DNA of 51,245 bases, taken from contig JBDRIL010000060.1 in the NCBI GenBank assembly GCA_043815885.1, positions 1-51,245 of the forward strand, given 5' to 3'. Each line of letters opens with the position of its first letter. The first letter of the stretch is position 1. Made by a program: the position numbers. The stretch comes from an archaeon (GTDB taxonomy: Archaea; Iainarchaeota; Iainarchaeia; Iainarchaeales; 1-14-0-10-31-34). Positions 33,701 through 36,700 of the stretch are shown here, piece after piece.

Positions 33701-36700
33701 GGGTATAAACCATTGAGTAAGTATTACAAGGATAAGAAGGAGGATTTGGTTGGAGAGATTGAATTGCCGCTGGCTTTAGGAATTGTGGGAGGAGCCACTA
33801 AAACCAATCCAGTTGCAGGAATTTCTCTGAAGATTTTGGGAGTGAAGAGTGCAAGGGAATTAGCTGAGGTAATTGCGTGTGTTGGCTTGGCGAATAACTT
33901 TGCTGCTCTCAGGGCATTGGCTACAGAAGGAATACAGAAAGGCCATATGAAACTGCATGCAAAAAATATTGCAATAATGGCTGGAGCAAATGGAAAAGAA
34001 GTGGAAAGAGTAGCAGAAAAAATGGTTAAAGAGAAAGATGTTTCAGTTGGAAAAGCAAAAGAAATAATGAATGAATCTGGGTAAAGGAAAAGGTTTTAAT
34101 TAATTGCCGGAATCATTAATTCATAGAGGAGAAGAAAATGGAGCCAAAAACAATTGCAGTAATTGGTTTGTCGGTAATTGCAGTGTTGTTGCTTATAGGT
34201 TATTATTACTTTAAATTGACTTTATGGAGAAAAAAGAAATGACTGGAATAATTAGCTACGGGGCATATGTGCCGATATTGAGAATTACAATGGATGAGAT
34301 TGCCCATACATGGAAGAAGGACGGAAAAAAGATTGCAAGCGGTTTAGGGTTAAAGGAAAAGGCTGTTGCTTCATTTGACGAGGATGCATGCACTATTTCA
34401 GTGGAAGCAGCAAGAAAAGCATTGGAATTGGCTGGAATTAATTCTCAGGACATTGGAGCAATTTATGTTGGAAGCGAAAGCCATCCATATGCAGTAAAGC
34501 CCACTGCATCCATTGTAGGGGATGCAATCAATGCTGGACCGCATTTAATGGCTGCAGATTTAGAGTTTGCATGCAAGGCAGGAACAGCAGGAATACAGAT
34601 GTGCATTGGATTGGTTAAGAGTGGAATGATTGAGTATGGAATGAGTATTGGAGCAGATACAGCTCAAGGAAAGCCAAATGATGCACTGGAATTTACTGCT
34701 GCCTCTGGAGGAGCAGCAATAATGATTGGAGGAAAGAAGGAAGAAGTAATTGCAGAAGTAATTGACACCAGTAGTTTTACTACTGATACCCCTGATTTCT
34801 GGAGAAGACAGCACGCAGAATTCCCAAGACATGCAGGAAGATTTACTGGAAAACCGGCATACTTCAAACATACGATTGGAGCAGCAGAAGCAATAATGAA
34901 GAAACACAAGTTAACTGCAAAAGACTTTGATTATGCAGTGTTTCATCAGCCGAATGGAAAGTTTCCAGTGCAGGCAGGAAAAATTCTGGGATTTGAAGAA
35001 AAACAACTGGAACAGGGATTGATTACTCCTTTTATTGGAAATACTTACAGTGGAAGCAGCATGATTGGATTGTGCAGTGTACTGGACAAGGCAAAAGAAG
35101 GAGAAAAAATCTTAATGGTTAGTTATGGGAGCGGGGCGGGAAGCGATGCATTTATCTTTACTGTAACAAAGAATTTAGAGAAAAAAAGAGCAAAGGTTTC
35201 GGTAATGGAAATGATTAAGGAAAAAGAATACATTACCTATGCAGAATACGCAAAGCACAGGAAAAAACTGAAGAGTATGTGGTGAAAAGAAATGAGAGTA
35301 AAGGAATTATTAACGGAATTCAGGAAATCCAAAAAGGAAGGAGAAAGAACAAAATTCTGCCCAAAGTGCGGTTCAATTAATATGAGAAGTACAATGATTT
35401 TGATGAGTTCTTCCAATGAATGGAAATGCAATAAATGCGGATTCAAGGGAATTGCTTTTGAGGGAGATCCTGAATTCATTAAGAAATACAAAGAGAAATT
35501 AAAAGAGGGAAAGAAATGAGAAGCGTTAGTGTAATTGGTGTTGGAAACACTAAAATGGGAGAACAATGGGAAAAGAGTTTCAGGCAATTGATTGCTGAAG
35601 CAGGATTAAAGGCTTTAATGGATTCAGGAGTGGACGGAAAAGACATTCAGGCAATCTATGGAGGCACGATGGCTTCAGGAAGATTTATTGGGCAGGAGCA
35701 TATCGGGGCATTGATTGCAGATCAGCTTGGAATGAATCCGGTTCCAGCCACCAGAGTGGAAGCAGCTTGTGCGTCAGGAGGAGTTGCATTAAGAACTGGG
35801 TATCTTGCTGTGGCTTCAGGGCAATATGATATAGTTGCAGTGGGAGGAGCAGAAAAAATGACAGAGGTTTCAGTGGAAGAAGCAGGATTTGCGCTGGGAG
35901 GGGCAGGAGACCAGGAAACAGAGTTATTTCATGGGGCGACATTTCCTGCATTGTATGCATTGCTTGCAAGATCACACATGAATGCATTCGGGACAACAGA
36001 GGAACAAATGGCAATGTGTTCAGTTTTAATGCATAAGAATGGAATGAATAATCCTAATGCCCAGTTTCACAAAGAGATTAGTGTTGAGGATGTAATGAAT
36101 TCAGGCTATGTTGCTTCTCCATTAAAGTTACTGGATTGTTCCCCAATTACTGACGGAGCAGCAGCAATAATATTGTGTGAGACTTCAAAAGCAAAAAAAA
36201 TATGCGAGAATCCAGTTGAGGTGATTGCTTCAACCCAGGCATCGGATTCATTGGCTTTAACTGGAAGAAAGAGTTTGACAGAATTAATGGCCACAAGGAT
36301 TGCAGCAAAAGAAGCATTTGAAAAAACAGGGGTTAAGATAAAGGAAGTGGATGTAGTGGAAGTGCATGACTGCTTCAGCATTAATACAATTTTTTCAATT
36401 GAGGATTTGGGTTTCTTCAGGAAAGGAGATGGAGGAAAGGCAGTGGAACAAGGAAGAATTGAATTGAATGGAGAAGTTCCAGTCAATCCAGATGGAGGCT
36501 TAAAGATGGGGCATCCTGTCGGCGCGACAGGAGTAAAGCAGGCAATAGAAATAGTGGAACAATTAAGGGGAAAGGCAGGAAAGAGACAGGTAAAAGATGC
36601 AAGAATTGGATTAAGCCATAATGTTGGCGGAAGCGGGGCAACCTGCGTTGTTCATTTATTCAGGGGATTGGAGGGGAAGAAGTAATGCCTCACACGTCTC

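What a model noticed while it worked through the whole genome (the two positions that open the first line are those of the whole stretch)
35292..35519. No transcript cleavage factor TFS (TFIIS/Rpb9 family) in this genome or in any of 40 sampled Iainarchaeota
No TFS gene exists here: no TFIIS-type zinc ribbon in the Pfam table and nothing above threshold in six frames; the best partial hit to the archaeal TFS model is a 75-aa zinc-ribbon ORF in the mevalonate operon (g01235, C60:35292-35519, 22 bits against a cut-off of 64.75). The same holds for all 40 other sampled genomes of the phylum, while four model archaea are positive. RNAP subunits, TBP, TFB, TFE-alpha, Spt4/5 and NusA are present. 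Iainarchaeota appear to transcribe without a dedicated cleavage factor.
Evidence so far: Pfam names absent; PF01096: 0 of 41 genomes at E<=1e-3, control 4 of 4 archaea; TIGR01384 on this genome, three single-contig relatives and one outgroup: 15-22 bits, cut-off 64.75; the method finds other small proteins: SepF 30 of 31, Nop10 in outgroups. PMC7289017 and PMC13257274 (passages read, calls 154, 151) do not mention such a loss; search gave 1 paper.
(Added by a program. Inside this text positions count along the whole contig: contig position 1 is position 1 of the stretch shown here. "Call 12" and the like, gene names such as g00115 and contig names such as C1 are that model's own, and its searches are not shown. 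The text may have been shortened before it was handed on; [...] marks where a part breaks off. The agent that wrote the report below was given it as the finding of a first reader that could run no searches.)

Follow-up and report, generated by a model that had tools for sequence, protein, structure and literature searches.

The report
Proofreading factor TFS lost in archaea
A whole phylum of tiny archaea, and most genomes of two related phyla, lack the helper protein that nearly all other archaea use to restart and proofread a stalled RNA polymerase; the small gene flagged here is an unrelated zinc-binding protein.

Summary
The absence is real and wider than reported. TFS was over the TIGR01384 cut-off in 0 of 201 Iainarchaeota genomes. 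A profile of the catalytic ribbon hit 0 of all 215 held. The control phylum (Nanoarchaeota) had 192 of 201. Canonical TFS is also missing in 201 Micrarchaeota and 61 Altiarchaeota (weaker control), which with Iainarchaeota make up most of DPANN Cluster 1. The gene's usual slot, rpoL-signal peptidase-[TFS]-PCNA, is empty. Exception: 15 of 201 Micrarchaeota, all in one order, carry divergent TFS-like genes, mostly an 84-aa linker-less form with the Asp-Glu pair. The flagged 75-aa ORF is not TFS. No Gre factor in 5 genomes. Most likely RNAP relies on intrinsic cleavage. The iainarchaeal trigger loop and bridge helix are remodelled, but no link to the loss is shown. Limits on novelty: TFS deletion is tolerated in Thermococcus (PMC10899632); a 2026 supplementary table already holds the pattern, undiscussed, with 1 of 7 'Iainarchaeota' positive (PMC13473441). 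No earlier scan note on this loss.

The parts
35292..35519 (+). 75-aa single zinc-ribbon plus helix protein; not TFS. It belongs to a widespread small archaeal family with two further paralogues in this genome (C12:6972-7148 and C30:38134-38493, both minus strand), plus a related tailed protein on C14.
   Evidence: no family over cut-off; PF01096 only 14.5 bits against 21; look-alike clusters are unnamed proteins, commonest in Bathyarchaeota and Methanobacteriota; homologues lie in varied gene contexts, including TFS-positive G214.
34224..35285 (+). HMG-CoA synthase, upstream neighbour (context only)
   Evidence: TIGR00748, 523 bits over cut-off 353
35516..36685 (+). Thiolase, whose start overlaps the ORF's stop (context only)
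   Evidence: Pfam thiolase domains over cut-off
36685..37089 (+). DUF35/ChsH2-type partner of thiolase and HMG-CoA synthase (context only)
   Evidence: PF01796 and PF12172 over cut-off

Best explanation
TFS was deleted from the csl4-rpoL-DUF99-signal peptidase-TFS-PCNA cluster in an ancestor of Iainarchaeota, probably already in an ancestor shared with Micrarchaeota and Altiarchaeota (DPANN Cluster 1). It was not replaced. Shown: absence by four profiles, and the empty slot. Inferred: backtracked or misincorporated complexes are resolved by the polymerase's own weak RNA hydrolysis, helped by Spt4/5, as in a TFS-deleted Thermococcus strain; the cost is small enough for these genomes to bear. 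The 75-aa ORF plays no part. Odds: absence in Iainarchaeota about 0.9; no protein replacement about 0.75; one loss at the base of Cluster 1 rather than several about 0.55.
For: Counts over the TIGR01384 cut-off: Iainarchaeota 0 of 201, Micrarchaeota 0 of 201, Altiarchaeota 0 of 61, against 192 of 201 in the phylum of G201. All 3 genomes titled Aenigmatarchaeota were positive; two were picked by their TFS, one by its RNAP. The same 201 Micrarchaeota give the small gene rpoL in 197. Synteny: a signal peptidase lies beside TFS in 21 of 30 Nanoarchaeota loci, and PCNA in 41 of 80 pan-archaeal TFS loci. No TFS-like match lies in 102 rpoL loci from 79 Cluster 1 genomes, while 5 of 5 control loci score 100-124 bits. 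In 9 such loci the peptidase and PCNA genes lie within about 125 bases of each other. Gre PF01272: 0 of 5 genomes, with 9 of 14 controls positive. Independent table, arCOG00579: Altiarchaeota 0%, Micrarchaeota 0%, Undinarchaeota 100%, Nanoarchaeota 95%, Cluster 1 ancestor probability 0.15 (PMC13473441 Supplementary Data 25). TFS deletion is viable with little defect (PMC10899632 section 8).
Against: The same table gives Iainarchaeota 14.3% (1 of 7). Two of those 7 are now classed as phylum B1Sed10-29. I could not see which genome is positive, and I did not search B1Sed10-29; if it keeps TFS, the loss happened more than once. 15 of 201 Micrarchaeota keep TFS-like genes, and the tree cannot say whether they are remnants or re-acquired (quick tree, 111 columns, long branches). 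In Altiarchaeota the control is weak: rpoL was found in only 20 of 61. One Altiarchaeota genome has a 20-bit C-ribbon hit with similar Cys spacing, though no PF01096 match. Most genomes are MAGs, and genomes other than this one were searched through a pre-filter. Intrinsic cleavage was not measured.
Confidence: 0.72

Rival explanations
1. Loss plus compensation: the iainarchaeal RNAP active centre was rebuilt for strong intrinsic hydrolysis, as in cyanobacteria, which lack Gre.
For: In 10 iainarchaeal-type RNAPs the trigger-loop Phe before the catalytic His is Lys in 9. It is Phe in 51 of 51 non-DPANN, 7 of 7 scored Nanoarchaeota, 10 of 10 Micrarchaeota and 5 of 5 Altiarchaeota. The G-x-P hinge proline is lost in 10 of 10. 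A bridge-helix Leu becomes Glu or Asp in 10 of 10, against Leu in 60 of 60 non-DPANN (7 trigger-loop and 2 bridge-helix rows were skipped by the parser). The hinge Thr is replaced in 22 of 25 Cluster 1 enzymes but kept in 56 of 58 others; the 3 that keep it belong to the order that has TFS-like genes. Hinge and helix changes tune activity (PMC2776397, PMC7026648, passages).
Against: Altiarchaeota and some Micrarchaeota lack TFS with near-canonical motifs. TFS-positive DPANN also have diverged bridge helices (PMC8204694), and one has the same Phe-to-Lys change (L183; skipped in the count). At the position of the best cyanobacterial change (E. coli A940V) Iainarchaeota go the opposite way, Val to Ala or Ser (numbering recalled). 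Yeast T1095A behaves as wild type (PMC3325174).
Confidence: 0.2
2. A non-canonical factor does the job. One candidate is the Iainarchaeales protein with an N-terminal zinc ribbon, a variable linker and an acidic C-terminal tail (this genome C14:5825-6157, minus strand), which could dock like the TFS N-ribbon and reach the active site with its tail.
For: It is conserved across several families. The three hits whose source names a lineage are Diapherotrites. Its ribbon aligns to the TFS N-ribbon (35 columns, probability 97%).
Against: The alignment covers only the generic ribbon. The full-length form was not found in G001 (single contig, 99% complete) or G017, nor in the micrarchaeal and altiarchaeal genomes tested. 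Gene context varies. The model shows ribbon plus helix and a disordered linker, with no structural match at E<=0.001.
Confidence: 0.07
3. Detection artefact: TFS is present but too divergent or unassembled.
For: Divergent micrarchaeal TFS scores only about 24-42 bits on TIGR01384. Altiarchaeal small RNAP subunits are very divergent. One of 7 genomes is positive in the published table.
Against: Profiles that do catch the divergent forms find none in 215 genomes. A loose two-CxxC plus acidic-pair motif scan of this genome found no TFS-like small protein. The syntenic slot is physically closed.
Confidence: 0.06

Closest known systems
Methanopyrus kandleri, the one named archaeal TFS loss (PMC7289017, PMC1177939, PMC2943090; passages read)
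   Same: An archaeal RNAP working without TFS.
   Different: One species there, up to three phyla here. M. kandleri's fast-evolving RNAP was blamed on the loss. Here the RNAP distance relative to S12+S7 is not raised: ratio 1.04 in 8 Iainarchaeota, 0.95 in 3 Micrarchaeota, 0.97 in 4 Nanoarchaeota, 1.00 in 26 others (weak test, 328 ribosomal columns, no Altiarchaeota).
Cyanobacteria lacking GreA/GreB (PMC7026648; passages read)
   Same: [quoted passage not shown]
   Different: High intrinsic hydrolysis was measured there and not here. The iainarchaeal substitutions do not copy the cyanobacterial ones.
TFS-deleted Thermococcus kodakarensis strain RLV2 (PMC10899632; passages and section 8 read)
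   Same: RNAP with Spt4/5 suffices without TFS. Histone-fold genes are also present in the 5 Cluster 1 genomes tested (weak in G420).
   Different: A laboratory deletion under optimal growth, against an ancient natural loss. The paper says TFS is absent 'from some archaeal genomes' without naming them in the passages read.
TFS/TFS1, Rpc10 (C11), Rpa12, Rpb9 (PMC8448823; passages read)
   Same: The micrarchaeal mini-TFS has both ribbons and an invariant Asp-Glu pair; best solved relatives are an Rpb9-Rpc10 fusion and Rpc10.
   Different: It lacks the long linker that TFS4 lays on the RNAP jaw, sits outside the usual slot (0 of 24 loci) and is patchy (16 clear hits in 121 genomes of its order).

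Membership tests
TFS (for the window ORF 35292-35519) | Two zinc ribbons joined by a linker | tested here: not met
   One ribbon only
TFS (for the window ORF 35292-35519) | C-terminal TFIIS ribbon with Asp-Glu hairpin | tested here: not met
   PF01096 14.5 bits against 21; C-ribbon profile 11 bits
TFS (for the window ORF 35292-35519) | TIGR01384 above 64.75 bits | tested here: not met
   20.6-22.2 bits
TFS (for the window ORF 35292-35519) | Position in the rpoL-PCNA cluster | tested here: not met
   It lies in the mevalonate cluster; the rpoL locus on C10 holds csl4, rpoL, DUF99 and signal peptidase
TFS (for the micrarchaeal mini-TFS) | Two ribbons and Asp-Glu hairpin | tested here: met
   8 Cys, Asp and Glu invariant in 10 of 10; PF01096 over cut-off in 3 of 3
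TFS (for the micrarchaeal mini-TFS) | Long inter-ribbon linker; TIGR01384 cut-off | tested here: not met
   About 13 residues between the ribbons; 31.9 bits
TFS (for the micrarchaeal mini-TFS) | Stimulates transcript cleavage by RNAP | not testable with these tools
   Needs an in vitro assay
Lineages without a cleavage factor (M. kandleri, cyanobacteria) | No TFS/TFIIS homologue | tested here: met
   0 of 215 Iainarchaeota
Lineages without a cleavage factor (M. kandleri, cyanobacteria) | No Gre factor | tested here: met
   0 of 5 genomes, 2 of them Iainarchaeota; small sample
Lineages without a cleavage factor (M. kandleri, cyanobacteria) | Accelerated RNAP evolution (M. kandleri) | tested here: not met
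   Ratio 1.04 against 1.00 (weak test)
Lineages without a cleavage factor (M. kandleri, cyanobacteria) | High intrinsic hydrolysis (cyanobacteria) | not testable with these tools
   Sequence comparison is inconclusive

The most novel reading that the evidence does not exclude
TFS was lost once at the base of DPANN Cluster 1, giving a gene-content marker that unites Altiarchaeota with Micrarchaeota and Iainarchaeota. Iainarchaeota then rebuilt the RNAP trigger loop and bridge helix (a Phe-to-Lys change with a matching Leu-to-Glu change, and loss of the hinge proline) into a self-proofreading active centre, the archaeal counterpart of the cyanobacterial enzyme. One micrarchaeal order instead uses a linker-less mini-TFS that must dock on RNAP in a new way.
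Probability: 0.15. Interest if true: 0.8.

Novelty: new member of a known kind. Interest (0 to 1): 0.58.

Why it matters
A review states that TFS is conserved in all archaea except Methanopyrus kandleri (PMC7289017). Hundreds of genomes in up to three phyla contradict that. The loss is a candidate shared character for DPANN Cluster 1, where the place of Altiarchaeota is debated. It supplies natural archaeal RNAPs, close to eukaryotic Pol II, on which to ask how proofreading and arrest rescue work without TFIIS. It also tests the old idea that losing TFS speeds up RNAP evolution; the first check here says it did not. Named micrarchaeal genomes (A_DKE; ARMAN-2) carry the unannotated mini-TFS, so that part is open to experiment.

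Tried and rejected
The window ORF as a TFS remnant: rejected (one ribbon; family also seen in a TFS-positive genome; varied contexts). A homologue search with it found only one near-identical protein. Complex prediction of the C14 ribbon protein with the RNAP jaw and lobe: no verdict, score 0.00, not used as evidence either way. Its fold search: no match at E<=0.001; the Atlas gave only unnamed clusters. Viral source for mini-TFS: one 22-residue partial match only. Origin of mini-TFS by tree: unresolved, and the careful tree did not finish. RNAP rate acceleration: not seen. A TFS remnant in the slot: none. Literature searches for this loss: 1 paper; 6; 0; 0; 5; 129, none of the 25 listed with both Diapherotrites and TFIIS except the review. 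The main supplementary PDF and spreadsheet of PMC7414124 were too large to read and may show the same pattern. The spreadsheet of PMC13473441 is held cut, and of its other files I searched only one 14-kb PDF separately. Not tested: B1Sed10-29, Undinarchaeota and Nanohaloarchaeota genomes, Eta, aCPSF1/FttA, Elf1, Spt4/5.

Full report
1. The flagged ORF. Window 35292-35519 (+) encodes 75 aa with a single zinc ribbon followed by a basic helix. It lies between HMG-CoA synthase and thiolase. No Pfam or NCBIfam family reaches its cut-off; TIGR01384 gives 20.6-22.2 bits over the first half of the model only. There is no second ribbon and no Asp-Glu hairpin. Look-alikes are unnamed small proteins commonest in Bathyarchaeota and Methanobacteriota. 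Paralogues exist on C12 and C30, and homologues elsewhere sit in unrelated contexts, including the TFS-positive genome G214. It is not TFS, and the finding is really about an absence.

2. Absence in this genome. From 80 loci fetched by a TFS hairpin pattern I read 77 TFS proteins and aligned 44. Unfiltered six-frame searches of the 1.16-Mb genome (91.74% complete) with that profile, its C-ribbon and its N-ribbon returned only S27ae, this ORF and other generic ribbons. The later divergent-TFS and pan C-ribbon profiles gave at most 16.7 and 12.3 bits. A loose motif scan found no TFS-like small protein.

3. Absence in the phylum. TIGR01384: 0 of 201 genomes over cut-off, best 29.9 bits. Divergent profile: 2 partial hits in all 215 genomes held, one inside a 448-aa protein and one a 56-aa single ribbon. 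C-ribbon profile: 0 of 215. It found 4 of 5 control genomes; the fifth, G225, was also negative. The complete genome behind L015 is negative. The phylum of G201 (record title Nanoarchaeota) has 192 of 201 over cut-off, so the method works on small DPANN MAGs. That sample was limited to genomes at least 80% complete, while the Iainarchaeota sample was not; 58 Iainarchaeota genomes are at least 90% complete.

4. The loss is wider. RNAP-selected loci gave handles for sister phyla. Micrarchaeota: 0 of 201 over cut-off, with rpoL found in 197 of the same 201; two unpublished genomes, G443 and G609, are in this sample and enter the counts only. Altiarchaeota: 0 of 61. One genome has a weak C-ribbon hit with similar Cys spacing but no PF01096 match. 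The rpoL control found only 20 of 61 there, so this negative is weaker. The three phyla form DPANN Cluster 1 (PMC7414124, passages; PMC13473441, passages, which adds B1Sed10-29).

5. Synteny. In other archaea TFS sits in a csl4-rpoL-DUF99-TFS-PCNA cluster: 52 of 80 pan-archaeal TFS loci show at least one of these neighbours or a signal peptidase, and 21 of 30 Nanoarchaeota loci show the peptidase beside TFS. In Cluster 1 the order csl4-rpoL-(DUF99)-peptidase-PCNA is often kept without TFS. In L015, L016, L021, L022, L024, L443, L444, L450 and L457 the last two genes lie within about 125 bases. None of 102 rpoL loci from 79 genomes (12 Iainarchaeota, 47 Micrarchaeota, 20 Altiarchaeota) matched a TFS profile above 16 bits; 5 of 5 control loci did. 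In most Altiarchaeota, and in the micrarchaeal order that has TFS-like genes, the cluster breaks after rpoL or DUF99, so the slot test says less there.

6. The exception. A mixed profile revealed TFS-like genes in Micrarchaeota. A profile built from them finds 15 of 201 genomes: 11 with an 84-aa two-ribbon protein almost without linker and with an invariant Gly-Asp-Glu tip, 3 with a longer divergent form (one genome has both), and 2 with the C-ribbon fused to DUF6879. All 15 lie in one order, where 16 of 121 genomes have a clear hit and 1 a weak one. Record titles point to Micrarchaeales, including Ca. Micrarchaeum A_DKE; one locus is titled Methanothrix and two Marsarchaeota. ARMAN-2 carries it as a hypothetical protein. 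About 28 clusters exist. None of 24 loci lies in the usual slot. The quick tree makes the mini form one long-branched group and cannot name its source.

7. Replacements. Gre factors: 0 of 5 genomes. An Iainarchaeales protein with ribbon, helix, variable linker and acidic tail (C14 here) was considered. It aligns to TFS only over the generic N-ribbon, is not found full-length in G001 or G017, and has no significant fold match. The complex job gave no verdict.

8. The polymerase. Ten iainarchaeal-type RNAPs share unusual trigger-loop and bridge-helix residues: Lys for the Phe before the catalytic His in 9 of 10, hinge proline lost in 10 of 10, bridge-helix Leu to Glu or Asp in 10 of 10. Two of the ten were assigned by likeness, and the non-DPANN comparison set was not checked genome by genome for TFS. 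Equivalences to yeast and E. coli numbering are recalled. These changes are not shared with Altiarchaeota; TFS-positive Nanoarchaeota are also diverged (PMC8204694, passages; L183 has the same Lys); and the position matching the strongest cyanobacterial change goes the other way (PMC7026648, passages). A hinge Thr is replaced in 22 of 25 Cluster 1 enzymes, but yeast T1095A is silent (PMC3325174, passages). RNAP divergence relative to S12+S7 is not raised. Compensation is therefore possible and unproven.

9. How it most likely works. TFS puts two acidic residues through the secondary channel to stimulate RNA cleavage (PMC7289017, passages; PMC8448823, passages). Without it RNAP keeps its weak intrinsic hydrolysis. 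T. kodakarensis grows almost normally after TFS deletion, and the authors infer that RNAP alone or with Spt4/5 suffices (PMC10899632). The simplest reading is an old, tolerated deletion with no replacement.

10. What is in print. The 2018 review names M. kandleri as the only exception. The 2024 paper mentions absence 'from some archaeal genomes'. Supplementary Data 25 of PMC13473441 lists arCOG00579 at 0% in Altiarchaeota, 0% in Micrarchaeota, 14.3% in Iainarchaeota and 67-100% in the other DPANN groups, with probability 0.15 at the Cluster 1 ancestor; its main text has no occurrence of 'TFS'. The 14.3% is 1 of 7 genomes, 2 of which are now B1Sed10-29. That the positive genome is one of those two is my guess. 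My searches found no paper that states the loss; the library lacks most subscription papers.

11. Verdict. Observation confirmed and extended. It is a new and very large case of a known kind, life without a transcript cleavage factor. It corrects a review statement, offers a clade marker and yields testable enzymes, but shows no new mechanism. Interest 0.58.

Noticed in passing
L498:8588-11575 (G000:C5, minus strand): RNAP subunit B'' (Rpo2N) is 996 aa here against about 490 in relatives, because of an intein of about 500 aa inserted near residue 456.
   Followed up: partly
L368:3001-3252 and L336-L345, L358, L359: Linker-less 84-aa mini-TFS of Micrarchaeales with an intact Asp-Glu pair, often annotated as hypothetical; it deserves its own study.
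   Followed up: partly
L335:952-1638 (+), L343:913-1641 (+): DUF6879 fused to a TFIIS-type C-ribbon with Asp-Glu in two micrarchaeal genomes.
   Followed up: no
L294:1495-1836, L300:1495-1839, L298:1477-1845: Long divergent TFS-like genes. Two lie beside genes that look like nucleotide metabolism (thymidylate kinase-like, CYTH-like, reductase-like; labels recalled from sequence, not scanned).
   Followed up: no
G000:C14:5825-6157 (minus); L499-L518: Iainarchaeales family of zinc ribbon, helix, variable linker and conserved acidic-hydrophobic C-terminal tail; function unknown.
   Followed up: partly
window 32789-43131: Mevalonate cluster: degradative-type HMG-CoA reductase, HMG-CoA synthase, thiolase, DUF35, mevalonate kinase, then UbiX-like, UbiD-like and aconitase X-like genes, which fits the modified archaeal pathway (pathway and the UbiX/UbiD labels recalled). 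Two unassigned ORFs (37086-37781, 37804-39150) interrupt it.
   Followed up: partly
L400-L412: Rpo11 (rpoL) of most Altiarchaeota is so divergent that Pfam barely detects it.
   Followed up: no
L463, L464, L465, L468: DUF99 and signal peptidase are fused in one altiarchaeal group.
   Followed up: no
L364:1342-1677 (minus): Altiarchaeal multi-cysteine protein whose first ribbon has TFS-like spacing and an acidic tip; single genome, no PF01096 match.
   Followed up: partly
L044, L371: A Nitrosopumilaceae-like TFS in a record titled Leptospiria and a mini-TFS in a record titled Methanothrix: probably binning or labelling errors.
   Followed up: no
L015:4129-6206: Two PCNA-like genes close together.
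   Followed up: no
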